Assembly (NCBI GenBank): GCA_000004985.1
Contig: GG738855.1
Reading direction: 5' to 3' (one strand)
Origin: Naegleria gruberi
Lineage: Eukaryota
Length of the DNA: 64,000 bases
Each line of letters opens with the position of its first letter. The stretch's first letter is position 1. Under the pieces are notes generated by a model. That model made no database searches, was not told the origin of the DNA, and saw nothing but the letters and a program-made list of their open reading frames with translations. The position numbers and the translations under genes were made by a program. Positions 7,719 to 64,000 of the stretch are shown here, one piece after another.

Positions 7719-7801
7719 GCCCGCGTAGCAGAGTGGTCAAATGCGTAAGACTTAAGATCTTATCCCGAATGGGTTCGTGGGTTCGAACCCCACCGCTGGC
7801 A
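7719..7801 (+). tRNA. tRNA-Leu(UAA), class II with a long variable arm
   Basis: A cloverleaf can be drawn. It has acceptor gcccgcg/cgctggc (6 of 7 pairs), an A-box tagcagagtgg, D-arm gca/tgc, anticodon stem taaga/tctta with loop cTTAAga, variable hairpin cccgaatggg, T-arm gtggg-ttcgaac-cccac, a B-box ggttcgaaccc, discriminator a, and a downstream T-rich stretch. Confidence 0.75.
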
Positions 7802-19213: not shown

Positions 19214-19410
19214 ACTGCCAAAAATCAATAAATATTTATTGAACCTGTACAGATTTTCTCTTGATTTTCACCTTCTCCAACTCATTGAACCAACACTTTC
19301 ACTTTTTCACACCCACTCAACCAATTCATTTCAACACACACAATGTTAACTATTTAACTCGACGCTAAAAAGAATCACACATTGAAAAATATCTTTGAAA
19401 TTAAAAAAAA

Positions 19411-20619
19411 ATGCCAAACACGCGCCACCATCACGTAATTTCCAAATATTTATTTACTCACTTTGAACGGAGAGATCTTTCGTTATTGATGAATGGTTAT
19501 GTAAATTATCAACAAGATGATCAGATAAATACTCTTCCGTATGTAGCATCCATTCCGATTGATATATCGGAAGATGAAGGGTTGATGGGAGGTAAAATTG
19601 GTACATTGGTTGGATTATTTATTTTGAGTGTTGTATTTGGTATATTGCCATATATTGTTCATCATTTATCTCAATTGGAAAGATTGAAAAAGTTAAAGAA
19701 GGCACTTCATATTGTTCAACTTATTTTCGGATATTGTAATGCTATTGCTGCTGGTGCAATTTTGGGAAGTGGATTGACTCACTTGTTACCTGATAGTATT
19801 GAATGTTTTAATAATTATTTTGAATTGTATAATCATCAGTTTGATAATTCAACATTGAGTTCAGTAGTTTTTGGTGATTCACCAACTACTAATGGTACAT
19901 TTACTCCAATTTCGGATACAGTTGTTGATTATCCTTGGTCAATGATGATTGCTGGTACTATTAGTTTGTTTTTGGTTGGTTTGGATAGAGTTTTCTCTGA
20001 ACATTCACATGGATCTTCGAATAGTTATGGAGGACATTCTCACTCACATAAAGGAGAGGAAGACCATTTAATTGTAAATTCTGAGGAAAGACATGAAATG
20101 TACAGTGAATTGGAACATGAAGAAAATAAGGAACGTCACAAGTATTCCTTCCTTGTCAAATCATTGCTTTTTACATTTGCTATTTGTGTCCATTCAGTTT
20201 TTGAAGCATTTGCACTTGGGTTGGAGACAAATACTGAATCATTTGTATCCTTGCTAGTTCCTATTGTAGCTCACAAGGGTTTCGAATCATTGACAACAGG
20301 ATTCATTGTATTGAGATATACATTGTGTAAATCATGGTTCCAGGTTCTTATTTTGATACAGGTTGCCATCTATGCATTGAGTACACCTATTGGAATGGGA
20401 ATTGGTATGGCCATCAGCAGTGGCGATTTGTCCTTTTCTTACTATATGATTTCAGGTATTATTCAAAGTATTGCTTGTGGGTCTTTCCTTTTCATTGCTT
20501 GTTTCGAAATTATTCCAACAAGTTTGGAGGAAAATTTTGGATTGTGGGATAGAGCTTTGAAAATGTTCTTGATTTGTTTAGGATTTGGAGTCATGTGTAT
20601 TTTGGCTGCCTTCTCATAA
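19411..20619 (+). CDS. ZIP (Zrt/Irt-like) metal transporter
   Basis: A multi-TM protein with a His-rich cytosolic loop (HGSSNSYGGHSHSHKGEEDH) and a conserved HSVFEAFALG-type motif in the TM core. Confidence 0.8.
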   Translation: MPNTRHHHVISKYLFTHFERRDLSLLMNGYVNYQQDDQINTLPYVASIPIDISEDEGLMGGKIGTLVGLFILSVVFGILPYIVHHLSQLERLKKLKKALHIVQLIFGYCNAIAAGAILGSGLTHLLPDSIECFNNYFELYNHQFDNSTLSSVVFGDSPTTNGTFTPISDTVVDYPWSMMIAGTISLFLVGLDRVFSEHSHGSSNSYGGHSHSHKGEEDHLIVNSEERHEMYSELEHEENKERHKYSFLVKSLLFTFAICVHSVFEAFALGLETNTESFVSLLVPIVAHKGFESLTTGFIVLRYTLCKSWFQVLILIQVAIYALSTPIGMGIGMAISSGDLSFSYYMISGIIQSIACGSFLFIACFEIIPTSLEENFGLWDRALKMFLICLGFGVMCILAAFS

Positions 20620-47627: not shown

Positions 47628-48176
47628 CAATTTTAAAATTATTGATTGTCATATATAAAAGTTTGGTACCTATAACCTCGGATACCTCTTACTCCAATCT
47701 CTTATTGATTTAAGATTTTGAAATTGTTTATTATTGAATTTTTATAAAGAGTATTGACACGAATCAGAAGCTTCTTATTGTGACAACACTTGATAGAAGA
47801 ATGGGAAAGTGGCTGCATTAATTCAACATATTGAAAGTGAACAAGGTTCTCAAGATTTGGAACTCTTCTTCATGAAGAGGAGGTTATTGGGTGGTGACTA
47901 GAGAGAAACATTTCCTTGTAGCTTTTCTACTAGTAAATGATTAATTGACCAAGATGTTGACCTGTAATATGGAAACACAATAAAATTCAATAATACTGAT
48001 AAATACAGTAGTGAATATGAATGGTAATCATAAATCACTGAAAAAATCATGATTGGATCCTTTTTGAGACTTTTGGAAGTCAACTTGNNNNNNNNNNNNN
48101 NNNNNNNNNNNNNNNNNNNNNNNNNNNNNNNNNNNNNTAGTGTCATCACAGACTAAACCTTTAGATAATAATCAAA

Positions 48177-49064
48177 GTGGTTCTGGAAATGACCNCAGTT
48201 TCATCACAAACTAAACCCTTGGATAACAACCAAGGTGGTTCTGAAAAGAACCTAGATGCTATTCTTCACGCCATCACTTCATTGGGTGAGAGAATTAAAC
48301 ATCTTGAAGCAGTTCCACCCATCCTTCAAGAAGCTGATCAACTTGATGACAACTCTGATGAGGATTCTGCTGAAGATTCCACTGGTAAACATTGGGGTAT
48401 GTCAACAATCAAGGAGATTAGAAGACACTACGAAGTTGGCGACAGATTAGCCGATGGAGATGTCTTAAGTTTTGTTTCAGCCAAAACTCTTCGTCGTTAT
48501 CAAACCAATGATGCTCTTTTGAATAGAGTTCAATCATTAATGGCTAGATTTGAATCCGTTATTCATAATCATCGTACTCATCCCCGTTTGCAAGAAATCC
48601 AATCAAAGGGCTTGCAAAAGATGATGGAAATGTTGCATTTGAAATCTAGACTACTCCATTTCGCTTTAAGTCACCCAATGAACGTTGCTAACATCATTGA
48701 AATCACAGAATTAGTTTATCTTCTCTGTGAGGTCGAGAAAATCTTCTTGGAAGAAGGTTTGTTTGATAGTAATTTTGAGGTTGCCACCAATTTCATTCAA
48801 CCATTCGTACAGAGCAATACGTTCGCTGACATAACCGAAAAAGCACGTAGTAAGAAGAGAGAGAAAGCTGTTATCAAGACTGCTTTTGTTGGAAAGATTC
48901 AAAAACCCAACAAAATGAAAGAGAAGTTGAACAAACCCTACACTTCTCAACACAACAGCTACTCTAAGTCTTACAAGAGTAACTCCAATTTTCAAAAATC
49001 AGGAGACTCAAAACCAAAGTACAACAACAACAACGGTGGAGGATCCTTCAGCAAGGACCTCTGA
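48177..49064 (+). CDS. DIRS-like ORF1 (Gag-like)
   Basis: 295-aa ORF immediately upstream of the RT ORF and overlapping it. It is preceded by two ~55-bp tandem repeats at 48140-48250. Confidence 0.6.
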   Translation: MVLEMTXVSSQTKPLDNNQGGSEKNLDAILHAITSLGERIKHLEAVPPILQEADQLDDNSDEDSAEDSTGKHWGMSTIKEIRRHYEVGDRLADGDVLSFVSAKTLRRYQTNDALLNRVQSLMARFESVIHNHRTHPRLQEIQSKGLQKMMEMLHLKSRLLHFALSHPMNVANIIEITELVYLLCEVEKIFLEEGLFDSNFEVATNFIQPFVQSNTFADITEKARSKKREKAVIKTAFVGKIQKPNKMKEKLNKPYTSQHNSYSKSYKSNSNFQKSGDSKPKYNNNNGGGSFSKDL

Positions 49065-50916
49065 CTTGGTGGGTTGTCGTCTTGGCAAGTTTGTAACTCA
49101 GTGGGAGAGTTACAACTTCAACCCATTCATAGTGGATTGGATTCGGAATGGAGTTCCAATCTACTCAAATCCCACCCTTTGGAAAGAATTCAAGCAAAGG
49201 AAGAATTTCTCTCCAAAGGAGACCTCTTGGATGGATCAAGAAATCCAAGAGATGTTGAGTTCCAATGTCATCGAACTTGGAAACAAATCTACGGTACTCA
49301 ATCCAATAAACATTGTCCCCAAGAAGGGCTCAGATCAGTTTCGTTTTATTCTGGATCTCAGGAAAGTAAACTTGGGGATCAAGGATACTTCGTTCAAGAT
49401 GGACAACATTCAAAAATGTTTGAAGTTTGTTCAGAAAGGAATGTGGGCAACAAAGATAGACCTGAAGAAAGGCTATTTTCATGTTCCCATCAGAGAGAGT
49501 CATCGACACCTTCTGGGATTCAAGTACAAGAGCCTTGTATACCAATTCAAATGCCTTCCATTTGGTCTAAGTCAAGCTCCCAGAAACTTCACCAAGATAA
49601 TGAAGGAACTAATGACCAAGTGGAGAAAGCAGGGCATCTTGGTATTCATTTACATCGACGATATATTGATTCTAAGCAACCACAAGGAAACTACCCAACA
49701 ACACACAGAGATAATCTTGAAAGACCTAGAAACATTAGGATGGATTATACAGAAGGAGAAAAGTGTGTTGACACCTTGTCAATGCATAGAATTTCTGGGT
49801 CTGGAATTGGATTTAATATCAGGTTTGGTAAAAATTCCACTCAACAAACAAGCCACTGCGATAAAACTGATCCAAGACTTCTTGTCAGCGAACCAACTGA
49901 ACAGATATGTAGCTTGCAAGAAAGTGGCTCAGTTTCTTGGGAAGATGGAATTTCTAACCCTATCAAACCATTATTTTGCACCATTTCTGGCTCGTCTTCG
50001 AAAGGATATGGTGAAAGTAGTAAACGACAAATCCTGGCACGCATCGATGAGAATATTCAGAGGTGCAACCAAAGACCTCAAGATATTGAAAACTCTGATT
50101 CAGGAAAACAGTGGAGTTCCATTCGAACTGAACTCAATGAACCCGATTCGAGTGAATTCAGATGCTTGCCCAACAGGTTATGGAATCGCAGAATCAACCA
50201 TTACAATTGGAAGATTCAATTCCTCAGAGCACATCAATGTCAAAGAGTTAAAAACACTCCTCATTTTCTTCACACAAGCAGATCAATTAAACCTTTATGG
50301 TCCTGGTCAAGCATTCGAGATAAGAGGCGACAATGTAACAGCAATATCTTATATAAGGAGAGGTTACGGAGTCATCGAAGAACTCTCACAAATAGCCAGA
50401 GATCTCTACAAAATTCTAATGAGAAGAAAATGGTGGATTTCCAAAGTGATTTATATTCCCTCAAAGGAAAACATTTTGGCGGACAGACTGAGTCGTCTAA
50501 CAGAATGGAAATCCTCTCAAGAACTATTGAATCTAGTTCAGACAGAATTTGGAAAACACCACGTGGACAGATTCTCAACATTGGAATCAACCACAACAAT
50601 TCAATTCAATTCATGGATAGAGAACGACACATTTCTGAACCCATGGGAACAAAATCTGATGAGCTATTGTGCTCCTCCTCTGGGTCTGATATCTCAAGCT
50701 CTAGTTCACTGCATCAAGTCAGGAGCCAAAGCGACATTTGTGGTTCCAGATTGGCCCTCTTCGATATGGTTTCCAGTCTTGCTAAAGATATCAGAAAGAA
50801 TGATAACTGTTTCGAGAAAGATGCTTATAATAACGCCCTTATCAGAGTTGCAAGACAAGTTCGAGAATTCGAATTTCCTGGTTGTTCAAGTGCATGGCAA
50901 GTTATTCAAACAATGA
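49036..50916 (+). CDS. DIRS-like reverse transcriptase / RNase H ORF
   Basis: RT motifs are present (…KIDLKKGYFHVPI…, LPFGLSQAPRNF, VFIYIDDILILS). An RNase H-like region lies downstream. Confidence 0.8.
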   Translation: MEDPSARTSDLVGCRLGKFVTQWESYNFNPFIVDWIRNGVPIYSNPTLWKEFKQRKNFSPKETSWMDQEIQEMLSSNVIELGNKSTVLNPINIVPKKGSDQFRFILDLRKVNLGIKDTSFKMDNIQKCLKFVQKGMWATKIDLKKGYFHVPIRESHRHLLGFKYKSLVYQFKCLPFGLSQAPRNFTKIMKELMTKWRKQGILVFIYIDDILILSNHKETTQQHTEIILKDLETLGWIIQKEKSVLTPCQCIEFLGLELDLISGLVKIPLNKQATAIKLIQDFLSANQLNRYVACKKVAQFLGKMEFLTLSNHYFAPFLARLRKDMVKVVNDKSWHASMRIFRGATKDLKILKTLIQENSGVPFELNSMNPIRVNSDACPTGYGIAESTITIGRFNSSEHINVKELKTLLIFFTQADQLNLYGPGQAFEIRGDNVTAISYIRRGYGVIEELSQIARDLYKILMRRKWWISKVIYIPSKENILADRLSRLTEWKSSQELLNLVQTEFGKHHVDRFSTLESTTTIQFNSWIENDTFLNPWEQNLMSYCAPPLGLISQALVHCIKSGAKATFVVPDWPSSIWFPVLLKISERMITVSRKMLIITPLSELQDKFENSNFLVVQVHGKLFKQ

Positions 50917-51821
50917 GAGAAATCAGTATTCTCTCTTCAATAGGTGAAAAAACCTTCAGAACCTACAACAGGATTTATGGTGGTTTTCTTTGGTTTATCA
51001 ATGTGTTCGATCTTACCATTGATAATCCTTTAGCTATTGAATATTACATCTCTTACCTTCTGGTTAATGTTCAAGGTTACAAAGCAAATACTGTGCAAGC
51101 AGCTATTCAATTCTTTGCTAACCTTGATGGCAGAACAATTAATATTTCCGTCTCTTACCCTAAAGTTAAAAAAGGTGTCCTTAAGCTTTATTCACTTTCG
51201 GATAAAGTTTCTCTTCAAAGAGATCCGATAACAATCAAACATTTGACTGATTATTTGAAGTGCAAAGACAAAGTGGATAATTTCACTTTCCGTCTTACAT
51301 CTGCTATTCTAGTAATTGGTTTTAGACTATTTGCAAGACCTGGTGAGGTTGCGCGACTAAAATGGTCATATATCAAGATGCTTAAAAAAGGAAGAATCAA
51401 GATTGATCTCAGTGGTCATAAAACTGACTTCTTCCTTATTGAAAAACCAATTACTATCGAAAGGAATACTAAAGATCCTAATCTTTGCCCAATTTCAATA
51501 CTAAAATCATACATGGATTTGGTTAGGAATTTCAAAGATGCTGAGTCCCCATTATTTTCCTTCGAAAACGACAAATTCTTTGATTCAGATGGTATTTCAA
51601 AAATACTAAAGAATGCAGTGGGTATAGTAGATCAAGGCGTAACAGTCTCAGGTCACAGCCTTAGAATAGGTGCTATCACAGAAGGACTCAGAAAGGGTAT
51701 GTCTACAACTGATCTAATGGTCGGTGCAAGACATAAAAAGGAAAAAAATTTATTTCCTTACCTTAGATCTGAAGGCCTAGCTGGCAAGAATTTCACTAAC
51801 ACTCTATTTTCTCTGGACTAA
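49074..51821 (+). CDS. DIRS-like overlapping ORF encoding a C-terminal tyrosine recombinase
   Basis: It stays open for 915 codons in a frame different from the RT ORF. The YR motifs lie in the last ~170 aa. Confidence 0.7.
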   Translation: MSSWQVCNSVGELQLQPIHSGLDSEWSSNLLKSHPLERIQAKEEFLSKGDLLDGSRNPRDVEFQCHRTWKQIYGTQSNKHCPQEGLRSVSFYSGSQESKLGDQGYFVQDGQHSKMFEVCSERNVGNKDRPEERLFSCSHQRESSTPSGIQVQEPCIPIQMPSIWSKSSSQKLHQDNEGTNDQVEKAGHLGIHLHRRYIDSKQPQGNYPTTHRDNLERPRNIRMDYTEGEKCVDTLSMHRISGSGIGFNIRFGKNSTQQTSHCDKTDPRLLVSEPTEQICSLQESGSVSWEDGISNPIKPLFCTISGSSSKGYGESSKRQILARIDENIQRCNQRPQDIENSDSGKQWSSIRTELNEPDSSEFRCLPNRLWNRRINHYNWKIQFLRAHQCQRVKNTPHFLHTSRSIKPLWSWSSIRDKRRQCNSNILYKERLRSHRRTLTNSQRSLQNSNEKKMVDFQSDLYSLKGKHFGGQTESSNRMEILSRTIESSSDRIWKTPRGQILNIGINHNNSIQFMDRERHISEPMGTKSDELLCSSSGSDISSSSSLHQVRSQSDICGSRLALFDMVSSLAKDIRKNDNCFEKDAYNNALIRVARQVREFEFPGCSSAWQVIQTMREISILSSIGEKTFRTYNRIYGGFLWFINVFDLTIDNPLAIEYYISYLLVNVQGYKANTVQAAIQFFANLDGRTINISVSYPKVKKGVLKLYSLSDKVSLQRDPITIKHLTDYLKCKDKVDNFTFRLTSAILVIGFRLFARPGEVARLKWSYIKMLKKGRIKIDLSGHKTDFFLIEKPITIERNTKDPNLCPISILKSYMDLVRNFKDAESPLFSFENDKFFDSDGISKILKNAVGIVDQGVTVSGHSLRIGAITEGLRKGMSTTDLMVGARHKKEKNLFPYLRSEGLAGKNFTNTLFSLD

Positions 51822-52559
51822 CCCATTGGTTTATCAACGAAATTCTTTATTGTTTTATTTGGAGAAATATGGCTAGTTGCGAGGAACGATGCAACGTTAG
51901 TATTTCGACAAATTGTAAACAATAAAATTGAGTTGATAAATAATTTTTATGCTCAAAAAAATTAAGAAACATGGTAAACACACCAAGCAAAATCATTGCT
52001 GACCCACCCACCCATTCCCTTAATTTCATCAAGAATTCCTTGAATTCTTTCAAATAGTCCTTCACTCCTTGAGTGTTTTTTCCTATTTGTCTTTTAGTTT
52101 GATCTTGGTAAGTGATCCTTCTAAGGATGCAGGATTAGTATTACCTTGTGATACAATAATTTTTATTTCTAACTAACATCATTTGAATAATTCGAAATAT
52201 GCTCGTAAAGTTAGCCAGATTTATTTTTTCAAAAAATATTTCTGATAGAAATTACCAGGCATTTTTTTACAAGCAATTCACTAGTTAAAATAGAGAACTT
52301 TAATGGATTGGAGTTTTTACTGATTTTTTCCTGCAATGCAGGTTTTTTATAGGGGAGTTGTTCTATTTCAATCTCGATTTTGTAAACAACTTTATTAACT
52401 CGGGACAATGCTGAATAAAGTCAATGACCTAAAAGGCAGCATTTCCGAGCAACATACCTCATCCTTTGGATGAAGAATATGTTGAGTGAGCTTCTACCCA
52501 TTGGTTTATCAACGAAATTCTTTATTGTTTTATTTGGAGAAATAATAAAAATCTATATG

Positions 52560-53700
52560 AATTTTCTGAAACAAATGGAATGAAAAATAAATAAAAGGTG
52601 TAAGTTTATTAATGTCTCTTGTATCAATAACGACCTGAGAGACCACACTTTTTCGGCATTTAAGGACTCTGTGCAACATTTGAATGATTTGGGTTAAGAT
52701 TGAGTGCCGTTGAGTGAGTGTGCCTAAAGTAGGCTGATTGGAATTTTGAGTTTTTGATAAAAGGTTGTCGGGAGGGACGGTTGTACCACATAGTGTTTTT
52801 GTAACAATTTTCTAAATAAATGGCGAATGCCTTGTAAATTTCTAGAGCTACAGCCTTAGGAAGTCTTTTGTTCTTTGACCATAAGAGCCTATCGCTGCGA
52901 GAGCAGCTTCCGTTAAAATCAATAATAAGGCAGTTCCTCACTTTGTCTGAAGGGAGACGAATCGGATCGAGGTTAAATTTGGAGGAAATATTGTCCCAAG
53001 TAGCATACAGTTCCTGTTTTTCATGGTTGCTTTTAGAGCACGATGAGAAAACGTGTGTCCAGTCTTCGGCAGTTTGACATGAATCACAGGTTGTATTGTT
53101 ATCTAGAATAATAGCGTGGTGAAGGTTTAGGAAAAGGAGTCTTTGTTGATAGTAGGAGAGATGGAAATTTCTCCAAAAGGAAACAGTTGAAAGGTGCCAA
53201 TTAAGATTTGAATCTAACTGGCCCAACTCTGAGATGGTTTTTTTGGATCTTTTGAGTTCAAGAATATCGTTTCGTAAGTTGGTGATGGGTTTGTGTGACG
53301 ATCTGTCACAAAGAACCCATCCACTCTCTGTTGGATTGAAGTATGCATTGAGTTTGTTGATATTTAAGGCTGCATTTGTCCAGAGAGAGTCTGTAGATTT
53401 GCCTCGGAGAGCTTTTTGAATCGAGGCCCTTGCAATGTTGCGGGTGATTGTGGATGAGGAGTTCACAAATCTACAGACCGATGCTGTGCATTCAATGTCT
53501 AACACATCTACAGGAGACGTGAGACCGAGACCACCATGTCGCTTATCACCATAGATGACAGCTTTGGAAAGTTTGAAATTACACCCTAATTTCTTCTTAA
53601 TAGAACCACTAATATTTGATTCAAGTTTGGTTAACGTGGATAGGGGGACGGCATCAACACTTGATAAGTATCTAGGGATAGAGAGTACTTGGTTTGGGTT
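52560..53700 (-). mobile_element. 5'-truncated non-LTR (LINE/TRE-type) retrotransposon ORF2 3' fragment
   Basis: The minus-strand frame …KLSKAVIYGDKRHGGLGLTSPVDVL… is the GGLGL motif found C-terminal to LINE RTs. A CCHC finger follows (CDSCQTAEDWTHVFSSC). The 3' UTR has an AATAAA near 52560. Confidence 0.5.
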
Positions 53701-56230
53701 TGGTTAGGATTCAGAGTTGATTTATTTGGGTTATTTAAGAGATTACTTAGTGAAGATTCAAATCAATGATTATAATTCTTATCATCTATTAATGATGTAA
53801 ATTTGATGTTTTCATTTCTTATATTGATAGATATTTAAAGGTCAGGTCAGAACTAACTTTTGAATTATGGACTTTGAGAAGTCAAATGTTTGGGACGTGA
53901 ATCTACTCATTAGATTGAATAGGTATTGCTAATAAAGGAACATTTCATTGATTTATTGATTATAACGGTCAAATTGAGTTGAATGGAAGTGAATCACATG
54001 TTGATTCATCGTGGATGGGTAGTTTCGCCACGTAGTGGTGCAACTACCAACCTTTGTAGATTGAATCAGGTTGATTTGCATGCAATATGAATAAGTAACA
54101 TTATCAAGAGTGATTATTCCCCAATTCAACGATCAATATTCAATAATCGGTTTGATTTCAATCAATAGCATGATCATCAAGCTTTGAATTAATATTCCAG
54201 TAATCAACGGCAGTCTATTTTTAAATTTAATCAAAGACCATATATAGTATCTTGACTTTTGTGATCTGGAAACTATCTAGATGTTCTATATTGAATAATC
54301 TATTTGAAAATGAGAAGAATTAACTTCTATTGAGTTTTATTGGTATTGCAAGGTATTACGATTTATAATAATCTTCACAGAAATCACTCTCGAAATATAA
54401 ACTGTACTACAATGTATGAGAAACATAATGGTGGTGGAATTAATCAATAAATCGTTGAAATGACTGAGATGAAATGTAAACTATGGTCTATTTGTTATGT
54501 AATGGTGACTAGACAGTGTCAATTTCATCAAATTATTTCAAACTGGTAAGATTCAATAAAAAACGACTCTATACACCAAACATGCAATACGGAATGAGTT
54601 TCAATATTTAATATCGTGAACTGACTCTGTTGGATACCATCTCTATAAATATAACAATATGAAAAGTGTCAACATTCAATTTCACATGCGTTACTATGTA
54701 GAGTCATCATTATATCATCTAAATAGGTTGTATTTCATGTTTCAGTCACATTGACAGTCTTGATATTGAGATGTGTATACTAAGGTTGATGAAATGGTAC
54801 CTTCACTGATTACTGACATGAATATAACAATTGAATTTATAATTCTTGTATAATTAATTCATTATTCAACGATTTTGATATGATGGTAAAATTTAATTTT
54901 GAAATTAAGGTTCTTCCTAATTGATTACCTTAGATGTTCCTTAGTTGAGTTGAAGATGTTGAGCCATGAATATGAAACTTTCTCAGATTGTTCTCCTCAT
55001 CAAGAGGAGTGTATTCATATTTGATACTTGTATGATATTTTGTAAAATGAATGAGATGGAGTATATTTTATATGTTGAAATGTGACAATTTGACAGATTG
55101 TTATTATTATCATACTGAATTCAACTCTAATAGACTTAAATTGATACCATATGTATAACAGTGTGATTAAATGTATCTGGTAAAGTTACATGATGGTTGG
55201 ATGTACTTTCATTGAGATAGAGTGTACACTTGGATAAAATCAATATTGATATTGAACATTAACTGACTTACTAATTGAAAGTAATACGAATTGGTTCCAA
55301 ACTATATACAATGTATTTAGTTGATGTATACTATATGTGGTATCAATTCTAGATTGATTGTATGTATAATGAGCGAGTTGGAGCATAAGCTTTGATTTCA
55401 TGTCAAAGTTCTATAGTATAGTTGACATTTCGACATCTACTGAACCAATATTTATGAAATTGATACCATATGTTAATTAGAGTGTCTATATATCATGATA
55501 TCAATTTCAGTGAAAATGGAGTTGTTTCTGTACCTTCAGATTTCCATCCATTCTTGAAATATCCCCCATGTACTATCTACTGGATGCATTTATTGAAATG
55601 AAAACATATAATTTGATGAAAGTCCACTTTATTTGAGATGTAGAACTCGATATTATCATTTATTTTGAGATTGGTAACATTCCCTATAGTATCCTTAATT
55701 GTCTTAATTGACTAAAAAAGGTCAAGGAGAGATTTCAAAACATAAAATAAATGATATTTTCGAGATTTACTATCGATTTCCAATCGATTGATATGTATTT
55801 TGTAGATTGAGGATGTAGTTCTCTATTTGAAGATTTCCTCCTGATCTTCTAAGTCACCCTTGATAAATCACTCTTTACCTGAAAGATGGAATGTTCACCA
55901 AAACGTCTAAAAACTGAATTATATACATTATTTGAGATGTGGAACATGATGGTAATGTTTCATAAAGTGATCATTTTCCAGATTTTCATCCATGTACACA
56001 GTTGACTAGTTGGTATGATAGAGTTGAAATCATGAACATGAAAGTGAAAATAAACTTTATATTCTATCTCCACTCATCGAATGGAGCATTTTCATGCATA
56101 TATTGTTGATTGAAGTGATGTATTTGACAGACTTGGTCTGACTTGTCTTTTCTTAAAGTCATCTATAATATATCAACATTTACCTTTCCATGGTACCATT
56201 TCTGATTTATATGATATGAAATTGAATTCT
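53700..56230. repeat. ORF-free AT-rich degenerate satellite-like region, roughly 300-bp periodicity, subtelomeric-type
   Basis: No ORF over 60 aa. Short motifs recur at ~300-500-bp spacing (ttgataccatatgt at 55144 and 55450; gatgaaatg at 54467, 54781 and 55075). The composition is similar to 59390-59990. Confidence 0.35.
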
Positions 56231-56335
56231 AGGGTTGGGAAAGCGTGTTGTTTTGATTTGTTTCTTCTGTGGCTCCATGGTCTTTANNNNNNNNNNNNNN
56301 NNNNNNNNNNNNNNNNNNNNNNNNNNNNNNNNNNN

Positions 56336-57222
56336 NATGGTAAAAGATTGGAGGAAGAACTACTCTTTGTATAAGTTGGATCATCTTCCTTATTGTTTGG
56401 CAATGAGTAACCAAAGTTATTCTCGAGCATATTTTGGTGTGATTCTATAATATTCAAAAGTGTACTCTCAATATTAATGAGTTTGGTAATTTGGTCACAG
56501 ATTTGAATTCTTTGTGCTCTCAAATTCACCTTATTTGAACTCGTTTGGCTATTGGACATGGAGAAGGCAGGAGTTGTTTCCTCACCATCTTCTTCAAAAT
56601 CCATAAGGAAGAGAGAACCAGGTTGCTCTTCATCCATCTCGGTTAAAATTTCCCACAAGTTTGACAACTCCTTGATTCCATTTTCCATTGCGTTTTTCAA
56701 TGTACCCAACTTGTTAATAGAATCTAAACTAACTCTTTTAAGCTCAGTGTATTGTTCGAAACTCTCAGCACCATATAAAGAAGAACCAAAGCTTGTCTCA
56801 CTGTCTTGGTGTTTGAGGACTGCAGCCTTTGCCAAAGTAGTTTTCATTTTGGAAGGAGAATCTTTCTTGTATGGGGATCGACATCTAGAACCATGATTAT
56901 TTGTTGGTCTTTTGGTTCTTCCAGTTGTTGGTGAAACTGGCATCATGTCATTGTTAGTAGAGGAGAAATTAGTATTATTGGTGGAGGGAATTGTTGTATT
57001 ATTGGAGGTACTTGTGTTAGTAGTTGGTTCAACAATAATTGTGGAGGTTGTAGTGGTTGGAGTCTTGCTGTCATTCTCGGATCCAGCAAGTAAAACTTTA
57101 AGAGTGGAGACTTGTTTACGGAAGTGAATTTGTTGGTGGTGAAATTCTCTGATGAGTTCCATCTTGTTGAAAGGAACAGTTGTAGTAAATTGCATCATGG
57201 AAAGGTTCTTAAATATGTACAA
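56336..57222 (-). CDS. Hypothetical Ser/Thr/Asn-rich protein; the C-terminus runs into the N-gap
   Basis: ORF 56284-57222 continues into the 56287-56335 gap. It has low complexity and a possible coiled coil. Confidence 0.4.
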
Positions 57223-57990
57223 GTTTGTCTATTTACTAGTTATGATCACAAGTATAAAGATTGATGAAATCAAGAGATTATGTTGTTCGTATTGAATACG
57301 TTCGTTGTTGTGTGCTCTAAACTAAAAAAAGCTACTCCACTTGAACTTGCTTTGATGTGCACGCTAATTGCCTCTCACGCTTGGTTGGTCACTCAAATAT
57401 ATCAAGCCAAAATGGAGACTTTTTTTAGAGAGAAGAAAAAAAACAATAAGTAAACCAGGGTAATATTTATTACAAAAATGTCTCCCGCTCTCAAACAACA
57501 TCGCTAATTTTATTGAATACCTGCGTTATGGTGCTGAGAGTGTTGGTGTTTTATCAAGCTTGAGGATCTCTTTCAAAAGTGCAGTGTGTGCAACTTTGAA
57601 ACCATGGCCAATGCTTAACAACACAAAATAAATATTACAGAAGATAATTTTCTATCAATATCATTGTAAGAGGTTGACTGAGGAGAGATAACACAATATT
57701 ATGATAAGAATAGATTATTGCCATTTTTAGATTTGGATTCGATTATTTTGATATCTGGCAGTTTAAGACTATGGTCTATAGTCATTTTGGATATGAGGCA
57801 TTGGGCTGGATTTTATTCGTTCCATTTTAGTTTTAAATTGTTATCCTTTTCAATTTTGTCTTTTTTGTAAAGTGTTTGGTTTAGTAAAAAAGAAATTAGC
57901 TATTAAGGAATAAGTATTAAAGAGAAACATATCATATTGTCAATGATCTCNNNNNNNNNNNNNNNNNNNNNNNNNNNNNNNNNNNNNNNN

Positions 57991-58717
57991 NNNNNNNNNN
58001 ATTGGCATTATTGGATGATTCCTTTGATTCTTCTTGTTGTGGAGCATTTTCTTGAGTTTGTTGTTGTTGGGCTGCTCCTGGGAAGAGATTATTCAACAAT
58101 GATGACAAATCGAATGGATTGGCTCCTTGTTGTTGTTGACCATTATTAGGATTATTGAACAAGGATCCAACAACATTTTCAATGAGTGGAGCAAATTGTT
58201 CAAAACCAGCTCCCATACCACCTCTTCTTCTACAACCACCACGTGACCATGGACAACCAGATTGAGGACGAGCATCACCAAATGGACAATGTCCTTGACC
58301 TCTTCTACCACCATGCAAATTGAAATTCTTGAAAATTTCACTAAATGGATCCTTTGGACTATCATTGTTATCAGTTTCACTCTTTGGAACAATATTTTGG
58401 CAGACAATCTTGATAACAGTTTCAGAAGCGAGAATTGAGTTCAAAATCTTCCAATCTTCTTCATCTGACAAGGATACCCAATCATTTTGATCGTCAAGAT
58501 AGAAGAGTTTGAAACTGGTATCTGTGACAATGGATTTGGTTTTCAATTTTTGAACGAATTCCTCAAAGGTAATGCCACTTTGATCCAAAATGAGTCTGTG
58601 GACACTCTTTGGTTTTTCCTCCTTCAAGGTTGTTTCAGAGAGTGGTTGAATTGAGGAGTTTTCATAAAGGAAAACTTTGAAATGTTTACTAGCAGTTACT
58701 TGTTTTGCGCTGAACAT
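57991..58717 (-). CDS. PB1-domain protein with a Gly/Arg/Cys-rich and Gln-rich tail; the C-terminus is truncated by the N-gap
   Basis: The N-terminus reads …FKVFLYENSSIQ…FKLFYLDDQNDWVSLSDEEDWKI…, a PB1-like pattern. Then come GRRGQGHCPFGDARPQSGCPW and a poly-Q tail. The ORF runs into the gap at 57951-57990. Confidence 0.45.
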
Positions 58718-59389
58718 GTTGTTGTGCAGTTTTTTTGTTATTGGAATATTGTGAAGAGAATAGTGTTGAGGACTCCTTTTTATACCTCTTCAAACCGAAC
58801 GTTTTAGAAGTGCTAATGTATGTCTATTATTAATTCTATTTTCCAATAGACTCTTTCCGAGGTACCGTAGCAATTCATTGAGGATAATTGAGCGCAGTTT
58901 TCTTGTTTGATTGAAGTAGAGCACAACATAAGGTCCTTTTGGTTGAAGCGTGCGCACTTTAAGACATTTGAGGCTGAGAGAAAGGGGAAAATGTAAACAA
59001 AGAATATCACCAATTTTCATTCGAACAACTTGTTAATACTTGTTATTTATTTATATTGTTGTTTCATTTGTACAAATTGCACGATAACACCTTCAAATTC
59101 ATTCAGCTTTCTTTGGAATTTCTTATTGAGTTTTTCCAACTTGATAAATTCTCTCCACTTTACATTTGGATTAGTTCCTGTATTATTTGGGAATGTAGCT
59201 GAAGGAAGAGACCTGATAACAGGGCTTGCACCAGTCATTCCAGTTACATCTCCATGCACAGCACAAAACTCGTTGGCCTCTTGTTCATCAGGGATTATAA
59301 CTTCCTGCCTTTTCAAAANNNNNNNNNNNNNNNNNNNNNNNNNNNNNNNNNNNNNNNNNNNNNNNNNNTCTTAATGACATGGGTAGTTC

Positions 59390-59990
59390 ACTAAGGTAGT
59401 CACTTTGTCATATGATAACTATCTAAGATGATATTGAAATCATTCCAAAATTGATTCTATGAGAGTATATGATGATTATAACATGATAGTAATGAATTGG
59501 TGTCGATTCTTACCATTCATGACATGTAAGAATGTTACCTTTGATCAATTGGGACAGTAGCTTGACAGATATTCCAATTATATAGATATTAATTTCTACC
59601 ACTCAAATACGTTATCAATATCATTAATAAGAGTAGTGGTATGATATTCTATCTTGTTGCACATCTTGATATTGACTTGTCATATTGCCATGAGTAGTTG
59701 CTGACATGGTTGAATGACATGAATATTGAATGATGTCTAAATGATATGAAATTGATAGAAACATCATTATATGATATTATTAACATATTGTATCAATTTG
59801 GTAATGAATCTCATTGTCCTTAGGGTACTTCCCTATTGAGGTACTACCTTAATTGACTATCTCAATATTTAATATGAGATATGATATTTATTTCAATTCT
59901 ATCATGTTATATATGTAACTTGAAGCATTTTGATATCATTTTTAATATTTAAATATGATTTATTAGATATTATATATAGCAACTCTTTGA
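59390..59990. repeat. AT-rich degenerate repeat block related to 53700-56230, immediately proximal to the telomere-like array
   Basis: It shares word content with 53700-56230 (atgacatgaatat, tgatattgaaat, gataccat-like). Confidence 0.3.
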
Positions 59991-60020
59991 TTTTCAAAAT
60001 TGACTTTGAGATTCCCTTAT

Positions 60021-60404
60021 AGGGTTTGGGTTTGGGTTGGGTTGGGTTTGGGGTTGGGGTTGTGTTGGGGGGTTGGGGGTTTGGGTTTGGGTTTGGGTTT
60101 GGGTTTGGGTTTGGGTTTGGGTTTGGGTTTGGGTTTGGGTTTGGGTTTGGGTTTGGGTTTGGGTTTGGGTTTGGGTTTGGGTTTGGGTTTGGGTTTGGGT
60201 TTGGGTTTGGGTTTGGGTTTGGGTTTGGGTTTGGGTTTGGGTTTGGGTTTGGGTTTGGGTTTGGGTTTGGGTTTGGGTTTGGGTTTGGGTTTGGGTTGGG
60301 TTGGGTTTGGGTTTGGGTTTGGGTTTGGGTTTGGGTTTGGGTTTGGGTTTGGGTTTGGGTTTGGGTTTGGGTTTGGGTTTGGGTTTGGGTTTGGGTTTGG
60401 GTTT
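60021..60404. repeat. (GGGTTT)n telomere-like array, about 60 units; degenerate at the left and perfect toward the N-gap
   Basis: The sequence reads agggtttgggtttgggttgggttgggtttggggttgggg… and then becomes perfect gggttt hexamers up to the gap at 60405. Confidence 0.85.
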
Positions 60405-63302
60405 NNNNNNNNNNNNNNNNNNNNNNNNNNNNNNNNNNNNNNNNNNNNNNNNNNNNNNNNNNNNNNNNNNNNNNNNNNNNNNNNNNNNNNNNNNNNNNNN
60501 NNNNNNNNNNNNNNNNNNNNNNNNNNNNNNNNNNNNNNNNNNNNNNNNNNNNNNNNNNNNNNNNNNNNNNNNNNNNNNNNNNNNNNNNNNNNNNNNNNNN
60601 NNNNNNNNNNNNNNNNNNNNNNNNNNNNNNNNNNNNNNNNNNNNNNNNNNNNNNNNNNNNNNNNNNNNNNNNNNNNNNNNNNNNNNNNNNNNNNNNNNNN
60701 NNNNNNNNNNNNNNNNNNNNNNNNNNNNNNNNNNNNNNNNNNNNNNNNNNNNNNNNNNNNNNNNNNNNNNNNNNNNNNNNNNNNNNNNNNNNNNNNNNNN
60801 NNNNNNNNNNNNNNNNNNNNNNNNNNNNNNNNNNNNNNNNNNNNNNNNNNNNNNNNNNNNNNNNNNNNNNNNNNNNNNNNNNNNNNNNNNNNNNNNNNNN
60901 NNNNNNNNNNNNNNNNNNNNNNNNNNNNNNNNNNNNNNNNNNNNNNNNNNNNNNNNNNNNNNNNNNNNNNNNNNNNNNNNNNNNNNNNNNNNNNNNNNNN
61001 NNNNNNNNNNNNNNNNNNNNNNNNNNNNNNNNNNNNNNNNNNNNNNNNNNNNNNNNNNNNNNNNNNNNNNNNNNNNNNNNNNNNNNNNNNNNNNNNNNNN
61101 NNNNNNNNNNNNNNNNNNNNNNNNNNNNNNNNNNNNNNNNNNNNNNNNNNNNNNNNNNNNNNNNNNNNNNNNNNNNNNNNNNNNNNNNNNNNNNNNNNNN
61201 NNNNNNNNNNNNNNNNNNNNNNNNNNNNNNNNNNNNNNNNNNNNNNNNNNNNNNNNNNNNNNNNNNNNNNNNNNNNNNNNNNNNNNNNNNNNNNNNNNNN
61301 NNNNNNNNNNNNNNNNNNNNNNNNNNNNNNNNNNNNNNNNNNNNNNNNNNNNNNNNNNNNNNNNNNNNNNNNNNNNNNNNNNNNNNNNNNNNNNNNNNNN
61401 NNNNNNNNNNNNNNNNNNNNNNNNNNNNNNNNNNNNNNNNNNNNNNNNNNNNNNNNNNNNNNNNNNNNNNNNNNNNNNNNNNNNNNNNNNNNNNNNNNNN
61501 NNNNNNNNNNNNNNNNNNNNNNNNNNNNNNNNNNNNNNNNNNNNNNNNNNNNNNNNNNNNNNNNNNNNNNNNNNNNNNNNNNNNNNNNNNNNNNNNNNNN
61601 NNNNNNNNNNNNNNNNNNNNNNNNNNNNNNNNNNNNNNNNNNNNNNNNNNNNNNNNNNNNNNNNNNNNNNNNNNNNNNNNNNNNNNNNNNNNNNNNNNNN
61701 NNNNNNNNNNNNNNNNNNNNNNNNNNNNNNNNNNNNNNNNNNNNNNNNNNNNNNNNNNNNNNNNNNNNNNNNNNNNNNNNNNNNNNNNNNNNNNNNNNNN
61801 NNNNNNNNNNNNNNNNNNNNNNNNNNNNNNNNNNNNNNNNNNNNNNNNNNNNNNNNNNNNNNNNNNNNNNNNNNNNNNNNNNNNNNNNNNNNNNNNNNNN
61901 NNNNNNNNNNNNNNNNNNNNNNNNNNNNNNNNNNNNNNNNNNNNNNNNNNNNNNNNNNNNNNNNNNNNNNNNNNNNNNNNNNNNNNNNNNNNNNNNNNNN
62001 NNNNNNNNNNNNNNNNNNNNNNNNNNNNNNNNNNNNNNNNNNNNNNNNNNNNNNNNNNNNNNNNNNNNNNNNNNNNNNNNNNNNNNNNNNNNNNNNNNNN
62101 NNNNNNNNNNNNNNNNNNNNNNNNNNNNNNNNNNNNNNNNNNNNNNNNNNNNNNNNNNNNNNNNNNNNNNNNNNNNNNNNNNNNNNNNNNNNNNNNNNNN
62201 NNNNNNNNNNNNNNNNNNNNNNNNNNNNNNNNNNNNNNNNNNNNNNNNNNNNNNNNNNNNNNNNNNNNNNNNNNNNNNNNNNNNNNNNNNNNNNNNNNNN
62301 NNNNNNNNNNNNNNNNNNNNNNNNNNNNNNNNNNNNNNNNNNNNNNNNNNNNNNNNNNNNNNNNNNNNNNNNNNNNNNNNNNNNNNNNNNNNNNNNNNNN
62401 NNNNNNNNNNNNNNNNNNNNNNNNNNNNNNNNNNNNNNNNNNNNNNNNNNNNNNNNNNNNNNNNNNNNNNNNNNNNNNNNNNNNNNNNNNNNNNNNNNNN
62501 NNNNNNNNNNNNNNNNNNNNNNNNNNNNNNNNNNNNNNNNNNNNNNNNNNNNNNNNNNNNNNNNNNNNNNNNNNNNNNNNNNNNNNNNNNNNNNNNNNNN
62601 NNNNNNNNNNNNNNNNNNNNNNNNNNNNNNNNNNNNNNNNNNNNNNNNNNNNNNNNNNNNNNNNNNNNNNNNNNNNNNNNNNNNNNNNNNNNNNNNNNNN
62701 NNNNNNNNNNNNNNNNNNNNNNNNNNNNNNNNNNNNNNNNNNNNNNNNNNNNNNNNNNNNNNNNNNNNNNNNNNNNNNNNNNNNNNNNNNNNNNNNNNNN
62801 NNNNNNNNNNNNNNNNNNNNNNNNNNNNNNNNNNNNNNNNNNNNNNNNNNNNNNNNNNNNNNNNNNNNNNNNNNNNNNNNNNNNNNNNNNNNNNNNNNNN
62901 NNNNNNNNNNNNNNNNNNNNNNNNNNNNNNNNNNNNNNNNNNNNNNNNNNNNNNNNNNNNNNNNNNNNNNNNNNNNNNNNNNNNNNNNNNNNNNNNNNNN
63001 NNNNNNNNNNNNNNNNNNNNNNNNNNNNNNNNNNNNNNNNNNNNNNNNNNNNNNNNNNNNNNNNNNNNNNNNNNNNNNNNNNNNNNNNNNNNNNNNNNNN
63101 NNNNNNNNNNNNNNNNNNNNNNNNNNNNNNNNNNNNNNNNNNNTNGAGAAAGTTACTGAGGGAAAGATCACAAACTTTAGAATAATGTTTATTAGAACCT
63201 AAATTGTACTATTTGGAAATTAGAAGAAATTGGAATAATTGAATGGAATGAGAAAGAGAAAGAAAAATATCAAGAAACCAACTTATCATGACTAAATATT
63301 GA

Positions 63303-63968
63303 CTACTGAAACCTCAGTAACTTTCTCAAATAAGGATGGCGATACTGTCTCGACAATTTGTTCACATCCAAATTCAAATCTTCTTCAAAAATTCTCGTTT
63401 CCTCAGTGTTGAGAATTTCGTGTAATTTATCAAAGGTTGGTGGATATCTTTTATCTTGGAGTGAATGCTCAAACCAATCATTTTGTTCCAATTTGATAAA
63501 ATCATGATCCTCCTCAATATTTTTACGTGTATATTCTGAAGCGTCTTGAATATTGGTTGGTGTGTTATTGGTTGGAGTGGTGTCCAATTCTTCAACAATG
63601 TCCTCTTTCTTGTGTGATTGTTCTGAGCGTTCCTTGAGTGAGATAATGATAGCATCTCTTTCCTTATTAGCTGTTTTTCTAATCAAAAAGTAAAGCTCAA
63701 TAATAATTAGAATTACTATTGGAATACCCAACAAATAGGTCATTTTTCTACTCAGTAGAACTGGCATTAGGACAATAATGTAGAATGGTGAAAGAATAAA
63801 GCAAAATCCAATATTTTCTGCAACAGTATTGAGAATCTTTCCATCACTTTCAATTGATCTTTCATACCAATACATGATTAAATACTTTTCAACAATATAT
63901 GTGAATATAAAGTATAAAACTACTGCAATATAAACTAGTGGCATGCAAGTTCCATAAAATAGGCACAT
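63303..63968 (-). CDS. C-terminal part of a multi-pass membrane protein; the gene continues beyond the window end
   Basis: 221-aa ORF with three hydrophobic helices and a charged C-terminal tail. The upstream part lies beyond 63969. Confidence 0.45.
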   Translation of the reverse strand: MCLFYGTCMPLVYIAVVLYFIFTYIVEKYLIMYWYERSIESDGKILNTVAENIGFCFILSPFYIIVLMPVLLSRKMTYLLGIPIVILIIIELYFLIRKTANKERDAIIISLKERSEQSHKKEDIVEELDTTPTNNTPTNIQDASEYTRKNIEEDHDFIKLEQNDWFEHSLQDKRYPPTFDKLHEILNTEETRIFEEDLNLDVNKLSRQYRHPYLRKLLRFQ

Positions 63969-64000
63969 TATTAGTAATGTAATCTTGATGCTATACTCAG

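What the first reader, a model, noticed from the sequence alone, without database searches (positions are those of the whole stretch)
60021..60404. (GGGTTT)n array with degenerate proximal units and perfect distal units, abutting a 2.7-kb gap: a candidate telomere repeat for this species
About 60 hexamer units run G-rich 5' to 3' toward the gap. The telomere-proximal units are degenerate (gggtt, ggggtt, tgtgttgggggg) and the distal units are perfect, which is typical of real telomeres. D. discoideum lacks a simple telomere repeat. A TTTGGG-type repeat would therefore be informative for this taxon. If it is a telomere, the scaffold joins a chromosome end to unrelated sequence at 63144+. That would be a scaffolding artefact or an interstitial telomeric sequence.
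Basis: seen in the sequence. Interest (0 to 1): 0.6.

Follow-up and report, generated by a model that had tools for sequence, protein, structure and literature searches.

The report
Naegleria gruberi TTTGGG telomere repeat array
This is a real 383-base run of the TTTGGG repeat, already published in 2013 as the likely chromosome-end (telomere) repeat of the amoeba Naegleria gruberi, so the motif is not new and the only open point is whether this copy is a true chromosome end wrongly joined to other sequence in the draft assembly.

Summary
Window 60022-60404 holds about 64 tandem GGGTTT units, with the G-rich strand running 5'->3' into a 2,739-N gap. Variant units are concentrated at the proximal end and the rest is almost perfect. 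The organism is not a dictyostelid. A window ORF is 100% identical to a protein of Naegleria gruberi strain NEG-M, on a 613,270-bp scaffold. TTTGGG was already reported as the in-silico candidate telomere repeat of N. gruberi (Fulneckova et al. 2013, PMC3622300), so the motif is already known. Whether this copy is terminal or interstitial cannot be settled with these tools. I favour a real chromosome end plus a scaffolding error (about 0.55). The reasons are the outward G-strand, the proximal-degenerate structure, the three tiny contigs and two retroelement-like ORF sets (one of them only guessed to be transposon-derived) just inside it, a right-hand contig that starts without any repeat, and the absence of the motif elsewhere. 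A true interstitial array (about 0.27) or a haplotype-specific healed break (about 0.1) remain possible. A metagenome scan gave a side result: 21 contigs of one dataset (JAESGV01) all end in outward TTTGGG arrays. Interest is low.

The parts
59369..60021 (+). Unique, AT-rich, apparently non-coding flank lying in the same 1,036-bp contig as the array. It is the subtelomeric junction if the array is terminal.
   Evidence: Contig boundaries come from the N runs. No ORF of 80 aa or more lies wholly in this stretch except artefactual ones running into the repeat or gap. It has no similarity elsewhere in the window.
60022..60076 (+). Proximal part of the array: two perfect GGGTTT units, then degenerate units (GGGTT, GGGGTT, GT, GTT, GGGGGGTT, GGGGG...).
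   Evidence: Sequence read and unit parse. Variants are enriched here, Fisher p = 1.3e-6.
60077..60404 (+). Distal part of the array: 36 perfect GGGTTT, two GGGTT (60293-60302), then 17 perfect GGGTTT. The G-rich strand points 5'->3' into the gap, and the contig ends inside the repeat.
60405..63143 (.). Scaffold gap of 2,739 N. Its content is unknown: it could be more repeat, other sequence, or nothing real if the join is false.
63144..64000 (-). Right-hand contig. It carries the 3' end of an ordinary RSN1_7TM/OSCA-like membrane-channel gene (stop at 63303, gene continues beyond 64000). It begins without any telomere-type repeat. It is context for the array, not part of it.
   Evidence: Pfam PF02714 E = 5.9e-8, ORF 63303-63968, sequence.
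48138..59318 (.). Region internal to the array. It holds a DIRS-like retroelement (about 48.2-52.5 kb), a further ORF at 52660-53505 with no family match (a transposon origin is only my guess), a low-complexity gene (56337-57222, minus strand) and a PB1-domain gene (58001-58717, minus strand). It is assembled as one 8.1-kb contig and two tiny contigs separated by 50-N gaps.

Best explanation
The array is a copy of the Naegleria gruberi telomeric repeat (TTTGGG)n and most likely marks a real chromosome end. By analogy with other eukaryotes, telomerase would add TTTGGG units to the 3' end of the G-rich strand using a CCCAAA-containing RNA template. The distal units are continually lost and resynthesised and so stay uniform. 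The innermost units are never renewed and accumulate changes, which produces the degenerate-to-perfect gradient seen here. On this reading, the scaffold link across the 2.7-kb gap to the gene at 63144+ is an assembly artefact. It could be a false mate-pair join, or a one-read-sized telomere contig dropped into a gap. What is shown: the array, its orientation, its internal gradient, the organism, and prior publication of the motif. What is inferred: synthesis by telomerase, terminal position, and the misjoin.
For: 1. Identity of the motif. The window is N. gruberi NEG-M. TTTGGG was listed among genomes with a 'convincing pattern' of candidate telomeric sequence judged by position and orientation (PMC3622300).
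2. Orientation. The G-rich strand runs 5'->3' toward the contig end and gap.
3. Gradient. 8 of 11 proximal units are variant, against 2 of 54 distal units.
4. Assembly near the array. The contig ends inside the repeat. The last 4 kb before it consists of three tiny contigs (1,614, 1,318 and 1,036 bp), whereas a single 48-kb contig lies upstream. This is what thinning clone coverage toward a chromosome end would give.
5. Right-hand contig. It starts with unique sequence and no repeat, so no read anchored on the right reaches the array.
6. Repeat-element content. A DIRS-like element lies just inside, plus an unassigned ORF that may be transposon-derived, as is common in subtelomeres.
7. Rarity of the motif. 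It is absent from the other 60 kb of the window and from 153 kb of internal loci of N. lovaniensis, N. fowleri, Acrasis kona and Willaertia magna. It is therefore not a common dispersed microsatellite.
8. Independent terminal use. In metagenome contigs, arrays at contig ends point outward 41 times and inward 10 times (p = 1.5e-5). All 21 JAESGV01 contigs point outward.
Against: In the deposited scaffold the array is internal. The assembler found enough linking evidence to place a further contig 2.7 kb beyond it. The window runs to 64,000, so the scaffold continues at least that far. No read-level data, long reads or second N. gruberi assembly could be reached, because N. gruberi genes are not indexed. 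Synteny cannot arbitrate, because the window shares only one gene with the neighbourhoods of its N. lovaniensis and N. fowleri orthologue. Terminal position of TTTGGG in Naegleria has never been shown experimentally, and the 2013 authors themselves ask for experimental tests. Two GGGTT variants sit in the 'distal' part.
Confidence: 0.55

Rival explanations
1. This is a true interstitial telomeric sequence. A block of telomere repeats between 0.4 and about 3 kb long sits inside a chromosome between the PB1-domain gene and the OSCA-like gene. It would be left by an ancestral end-to-end fusion, by telomere capture, or by repair of a double-strand break by telomerase. The scaffold join would then be correct.
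For: The scaffold as deposited places sequence on both sides. The 2013 survey notes that most genomes with terminal candidate repeats also carry internal blocks, some longer than 100 bp. Genes lie close on both sides, 1.3 kb to the left and 0.16 kb inside the right contig.
Against: The right contig does not begin with repeat units, so the array does not demonstrably have a right-hand unique flank. The array is 86% perfect units with variants only at one end. This is the pattern of a maintained terminal array, not of an old decaying internal one. Coverage collapses into read-sized contigs just before it.
Confidence: 0.27
2. This is a haplotype-specific broken and healed end. In one homologue the chromosome was truncated at 60021 and capped by new telomere addition, while the other homologue continues to the OSCA-like gene. 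The assembler would have mixed reads of both, giving a telomere-ended mini-contig sitting inside a genuine link.
For: It would explain both the valid-looking scaffold link and a contig that dead-ends in perfect repeats. The array-bearing contig is only 1,036 bp, about one or two Sanger reads. Abrupt junctions of unique sequence to TTTGGG are seen in the JAESGV01 contigs.
Against: The degenerate proximal units argue for an old junction, not a recent healing event. No read or heterozygosity data could be examined. This is pure inference.
Confidence: 0.1
3. This is an ordinary G/T-rich microsatellite or satellite unrelated to chromosome ends, or a contaminating or chimeric read.
For: Hexamer microsatellites exist in all eukaryotes. 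69 of 120 metagenome hits to (GGGTTT)8 are internal, mostly in high-GC contigs.
Against: The motif is the published candidate telomere repeat of this species. It is absent elsewhere in 213 kb of heterolobosean sequence examined. It has the TxGy form, the outward G-strand and the proximal-degenerate architecture of telomeres. It is contiguous with 653 bp of AT-rich, N. gruberi-like unique sequence in one contig.
Confidence: 0.04

Closest known systems
Candidate telomere repeat TTTGGG of Naegleria gruberi (Fulneckova et al. 2013, Genome Biol Evol 5:468; PMC3622300)
   Same: Same species and same hexamer. That study judged candidates by position and orientation relative to adjacent sequence, and this array shows the expected orientation.
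   Different: That study reports the motif genome-wide. Its Table S5 is not held, so this particular array is not itemised there as far as I could see. Here the array lies inside a scaffold next to a gap, so it may be one of the 'internal' blocks or a misjoined end.
Ciliate telomeres: TTGGGG (Tetrahymena) and TTGGG(T/G) (Paramecium)
   Same: TxGy repeats with no A, a 6-nt period and a G-rich 3' strand. Some proximal variant units here are literally GGGGTT. Background from PMC3622300 and general knowledge.
   Different: Different register (T3G3 against T2G4) and an unrelated lineage (Discoba against Alveolata). The resemblance is convergent drift from the presumed ancestral TTAGGG, as argued in PMC3622300.
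Interstitial telomeric sequences (ITS) of vertebrates, insects and plants
   Same: Telomere-type repeats found away from the end of an assembled sequence.
   Different: A defining right-hand unique junction has not been sequenced here. The array is far more uniform than old heterochromatic ITS.
Terminal TTTGGG arrays on metagenome contigs of dataset JAESGV01
   Same: The same hexamer sits at contig ends with the G-strand outward in 21 of 21 contigs. Some have a few variant units at the inner edge (L042, L043, L086, L102).
   Different: The organism is unknown. Its AFG1-like protein is at most 38% identical to any named protein other than its own near-identical metagenome copy. No sequence similarity to the window's flank was found. 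Arrays are only 50-110 bp because they come from a short-read assembly.

Membership tests
Telomerase-type telomeric repeat array (chromosome end) | Short tandem repeat of TxGy / TxAGy type | tested here: met
   Period 6, consensus GGGTTT, 64 copies, 96% matches.
Telomerase-type telomeric repeat array (chromosome end) | G-rich strand runs 5'->3' toward the end of the molecule | tested here: met
   The G-rich strand is the + strand, and the contig ends in the repeat at 60404. 'End' here means the contig end, not a proven chromosome end.
Telomerase-type telomeric repeat array (chromosome end) | Variant or degenerate units confined to the centromere-proximal edge, uniform units distally | tested here: met
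   8 of 11 proximal units are variant against 2 of 54 distal, Fisher p = 1.3e-6. The exception is two GGGTT at 60293-60302.
Telomerase-type telomeric repeat array (chromosome end) | Physically terminal position on the chromosome | tested here: inconclusive
   The scaffold places a 2,739-N gap and a further contig beyond the array. The right contig has no repeat, and the array contig is read-sized. No reads or second assembly were reachable. Bal31 digestion or long reads are needed.
Telomerase-type telomeric repeat array (chromosome end) | Same motif at many chromosome or scaffold ends of the same genome | not tested
   The rest of the N. gruberi genome is not available in these tools. The literature lists N. 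gruberi TTTGGG among genomes with a convincing candidate pattern (PMC3622300), but the table with counts is not held.
Telomerase-type telomeric repeat array (chromosome end) | Synthesised by telomerase (activity ladder; RNA template complementary to the repeat) | not testable with these tools
   No telomerase gene or telomerase RNA lies in the window. A literature search found nothing on Naegleria telomerase.
Interstitial telomeric sequence | Telomere-type repeats bounded on both sides by sequenced non-telomeric DNA in one continuous molecule | tested here: not met
   The left junction is sequenced (60021/60022). The right side is a gap of N, and the next contig begins with unique sequence and no repeat. 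Continuity rests only on the scaffold link.
Dispersed satellite or microsatellite | Same repeat at multiple internal sites with unique flanks | tested here: not met
   No second (GGGTTT)2+ in the window. None in 153 kb of internal loci of N. lovaniensis, N. fowleri, A. kona and W. magna.

The most novel reading that the evidence does not exclude
The scaffold join is correct and N. gruberi carries a large (0.4-3 kb), almost perfect interstitial TTTGGG block between two ordinary genes. It would be either a scar of a recent chromosome fusion or telomere capture, or one homologue broken and healed by new telomere addition at this exact site. This would give a first handle on karyotype change, or on chromosome breakage and healing, in a heterolobosean.
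Probability: 0.3. Interest if true: 0.35.

Novelty: already known. Interest (0 to 1): 0.15.

Why it matters
It matters little beyond assembly quality control. The motif is already in the literature as the candidate N. gruberi telomere repeat, so the array adds one more instance rather than a discovery. In practice it flags a probable misjoin, or a misplaced one-read contig, in the 613-kb NEG-M scaffold. It also gives a defined unique flank (59369-60021) that could serve as a probe or PCR anchor for the experimental confirmation that is still missing for Naegleria (Bal31 digestion, telomere-anchored PCR, long-read end counts). If the array proved to be truly interstitial it would be modestly interesting for chromosome evolution in Heterolobosea.

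Tried and rejected
1. The phospholipase-B-like ORF is 100% identical to N. gruberi NEG-M XP_002680017.1, and window GC is about 33-36%.
2. A synteny test of the join failed. The orthologue lies deep inside large contigs in N. lovaniensis and N. fowleri. Its +/-10-kb neighbourhoods share no gene other than the orthologue with the whole 64-kb window. Gene order is not conserved enough to say whether left and right flanks belong together.
3. The search for an independent N. gruberi assembly or reads failed. Exact-protein look-ups for three window proteins found nothing on record.
4. The attempt to see telomeres of other heteroloboseans through paralogue loci did not reach an end. Loci from N. lovaniensis (two), Acrasis kona and Willaertia magna were all internal, the nearest 11 kb from a contig end. 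They served only as a negative control for internal TTTGGG.
5. Identifying the organisms behind the metagenome contigs with terminal TTTGGG failed.
   - The L039 Cu-ATPase is 38-42% identical to plant HMA5-type proteins, which fill the top of the hit list, and there is no Naegleria hit among the 120 listed.
   - The JAESGV01 AFG1-like protein is at most about 38% identical to anything named.
   - No nucleotide similarity was found between these contigs and the window flanks.
6. Literature searches for sequence strings, accession prefixes and Naegleria telomerase gave nothing useful. The supplementary table of the 2013 paper is not held.
7. A repeat search of 44-60 kb found no subtelomeric duplication inside the window. 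It found only a 49-nt direct repeat belonging to the retroelement.

Full report
**Observation.**
- Tandem Repeats Finder reports a single array at 60022-60404: period 6, 64.0 copies, consensus GGGTTT, 96% matches.
- A unit-by-unit parse gives 65 units, 55 of them exact GGGTTT.
- The layout is two perfect units, then nine variant units (60034-60076: GGGTT x2, one GGGTTT, GGGGTT x2, GT, GTT, GGGGGGTT, GGGGGTTT). Then come 36 perfect units (60077-60292), two GGGTT (60293-60302) and 17 perfect units up to 60404.
- Variants are concentrated at the inner edge: 8 of 11 against 2 of 54, Fisher p = 1.3e-6.
- The 12-mer occurs 56 times in the window, against 0.42 expected from shuffles. Outside the array not even a dimer of the unit occurs on either strand.
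- The array runs straight into 2,739 N (60405-63143), and sequence resumes at 63144.

**Organism.** That is wrong.
- The intact ORF at 17168-19213 is 100% identical over 681 aa to a protein of Naegleria gruberi strain NEG-M (XP_002680017.1 / EFC47273.1) on a 613,270-bp scaffold.
- The next best hits are N. lovaniensis and N. fowleri at 65-66% identity.
- The window has about 33-36% GC, long intron-poor ORFs and one tRNA-Leu.

**What is already known.** Fulneckova et al. 2013 (PMC3622300) scanned 143 genome assemblies for TnAmGo-type arrays and judged them by position and orientation.
- They state that experimental tests are still required.
- They note that most genomes with terminal candidate repeats also contain internal stretches or blocks.
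- Their supplementary table is not held.
- No other paper in the library deals with Naegleria telomeres.

The motif is therefore already known as a candidate. It is not experimentally confirmed in the literature I could search.

**Anatomy around the array.** The N runs divide the window into contigs:
- 1-48087
- 48138-56286
- 56337-57950 (1,614 bp)
- 58001-59318 (1,318 bp)
- 59369-60404 (1,036 bp, carrying the array)
- the gap
- 63144-64000+

The array therefore sits on a contig the size of one or two Sanger reads, and the 4 kb before it is assembled at about read depth. This contrasts with the single 48-kb contig upstream.

Going inward from the array the features are:
- 653 bp of AT-rich non-coding sequence.
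- A PB1-domain gene (58001-58717, minus strand; PF00564 E = 2.5e-7).
- A low-complexity gene (56337-57222, minus strand).
- An ORF with no family match (52660-53505). A transposon origin for it is only my guess.
- A DIRS-like retroelement. It has a reverse transcriptase (E = 4e-26), a Dam-like methyltransferase region (sub-threshold: 23.1 bits against Pfam's 28.1 cut-off, E = 7e-5) and a C-terminal ORF with a weak tyrosine-recombinase match (E = 0.02, below threshold).

The right-hand contig starts with unique sequence and no TTTGGG or CCCAAA. After 160 bp it contains the stop codon of an ordinary RSN1_7TM/OSCA-like channel gene on the minus strand.

**Terminal or interstitial?** This is the only open question, and I could not settle it.

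*For a real end with a false join:*
- The G-strand points outward.
- The array shows the degenerate-to-perfect gradient expected when only distal repeats are renewed.
- The contig dead-ends in the repeat.
- Coverage collapses just before it.
- Retroelement sequence lies just inside it.
- No read anchored on the right reaches any repeat.

*For an interstitial block:*
- The assembler did link a further contig 2.7 kb beyond.
- Internal blocks are common in other genomes.

*A third possibility:* one homologue may be truncated and healed at this site while the other continues. That would account for both the link and the dead-end contig.

*Independent tests failed:*
- N. gruberi genes are not indexed for contig look-up.
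- Gene order around the phospholipase-B orthologue in N. lovaniensis and N. fowleri shares nothing else with the 64-kb window, so synteny cannot say whether the two flanks belong together.

My estimate is about 0.55 for a true end with misjoin or misplacement. I put about 0.27 on an interstitial array, about 0.1 on a haplotype-specific healed break, and the remainder on a non-telomeric microsatellite or artefact.

**Comparative evidence.** TTTGGG is not a common internal repeat in this lineage. No dimer of the unit occurs in 153 kb of internal loci from N. lovaniensis, N. fowleri, Acrasis kona and Willaertia magna.

- 69 loci have only internal arrays, mostly in high-GC contigs.
- Among arrays within 30 bp of a contig end, 41 point outward and 10 inward (binomial p = 1.5e-5).
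- All 21 contigs of one dataset (JAESGV01; 22-39% GC) carry the array at a contig end with the G-strand outward.
- In those contigs the junctions to unrelated unique sequence are abrupt. A few have variant units at the inner edge.
- Two of them encode PPR proteins with DYW deaminase domains. To my knowledge that combination is rare outside land plants but is known from Naegleria and a few other protists.
- I could not identify the organism. Its AFG1-like protein is at most about 38% identical to any named protein.

This shows that TTTGGG behaves as a terminal repeat in at least one other eukaryote. It says nothing about this particular N. gruberi locus.

**Mechanism.** The mechanism is inferred from general telomere biology and is not shown for Naegleria.
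- Telomerase would extend the 3' G-strand with TTTGGG copied from an RNA template.
- Replication and processing would shorten the end.
- The balance would keep distal repeats uniform while proximal ones drift. The GGGGTT, GGGTT and longer G-runs seen at 60034-60076 fit this.
- The G3T3 register also fits the G3N1-7 pattern for G-quadruplex formation.

**Verdict.** Novelty is 'already known'. The practical value is as a flag for a probable scaffolding error, and as a unique-flank anchor for the telomere experiments that are still missing in Naegleria. Interest is 0.15.

Noticed in passing
window 48138-52544: DIRS-like retrotransposon. It has a gag-like ORF (48201-49064, no family hit). A second ORF carries a reverse transcriptase (PF00078, E = 4e-26) plus a sub-threshold Dam-like methyltransferase region (PF05869, 23.1 bits against the 28.1 cut-off, E = 7e-5). 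An overlapping-frame ORF ends in an HxLR...Y tyrosine-recombinase-like motif (weak Phage_integrase hit, E = 0.02, below threshold). A perfect 49-nt direct repeat lies at 51821-51869 and 52496-52544.
   Followed up: partly
window 56287-59368: Three 50-N gaps in 3 kb cut the sequence into contigs of 1.6, 1.3 and 1.0 kb and interrupt two genes: the PB1-domain gene 57932-58717 and the low-complexity gene 56284-57222. The upstream 48 kb is one contig. Assembly quality collapses toward the array.
   Followed up: partly
window 63146-63161 and 63312-63327: A perfect 16-nt inverted repeat (GAGAAAGTTACTGAGG / CCTCAGTAACTTTCTC) with 150 nt between the arms. The first arm lies 2 nt from the start of the right-hand contig, next to two N calls. 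It occurs nowhere else in the window (0.06 expected). It could be a small terminal-inverted-repeat element, a 3'-UTR hairpin, or a fold-back read artefact at the contig edge.
   Followed up: partly
L006, L014, L015, L021, L026, L040-L043, L052, L059, L061, L065, L071, L081, L086, L089, L090, L094, L102, L109 (metagenome dataset JAESGV01): All 21 contigs end in (TTTGGG)n with the G-strand outward, joined abruptly to unrelated, sometimes coding-looking, unique sequence. Contigs are 22-39% GC. L043 and L109 encode PPR-DYW deaminase proteins. The organism is unidentified: its AFG1-like protein is at most about 38% identical to named proteins. It is possibly an unsequenced protist lineage that uses the same telomere repeat as Naegleria.
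   Followed up: partly
L039 (VFQO010000557.1, 38.6-kb contig): Another low-GC eukaryotic metagenome contig ending in outward TTTGGG. Its P-type Cu-ATPase is 38-42% identical to plant HMA5-type proteins, which fill the top of the hit list, and no Naegleria protein appears among the 120 listed. One of its ORFs is 36% identical to the window ORF at 19405-20616.
   Followed up: partly
window 1-64000 versus L001 and L003: There is no microsynteny. The +/-10-kb neighbourhoods of the phospholipase-B orthologue in N. lovaniensis and N. fowleri are collinear with each other. They share no other gene with the entire 64-kb N. gruberi window.
   Followed up: yes
window 52660-53505 (minus strand): A 281-aa ORF with no internal methionine until near its end and no Pfam match. 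It lies between the DIRS-like element and the genes next to the array. It is possibly the C-terminal fragment of another retroelement.
   Followed up: no
window 7719-7801: tRNA-Leu (anticodon TAA), found by both ARAGORN and Rfam. It is the only RNA family hit in the window.
   Followed up: no
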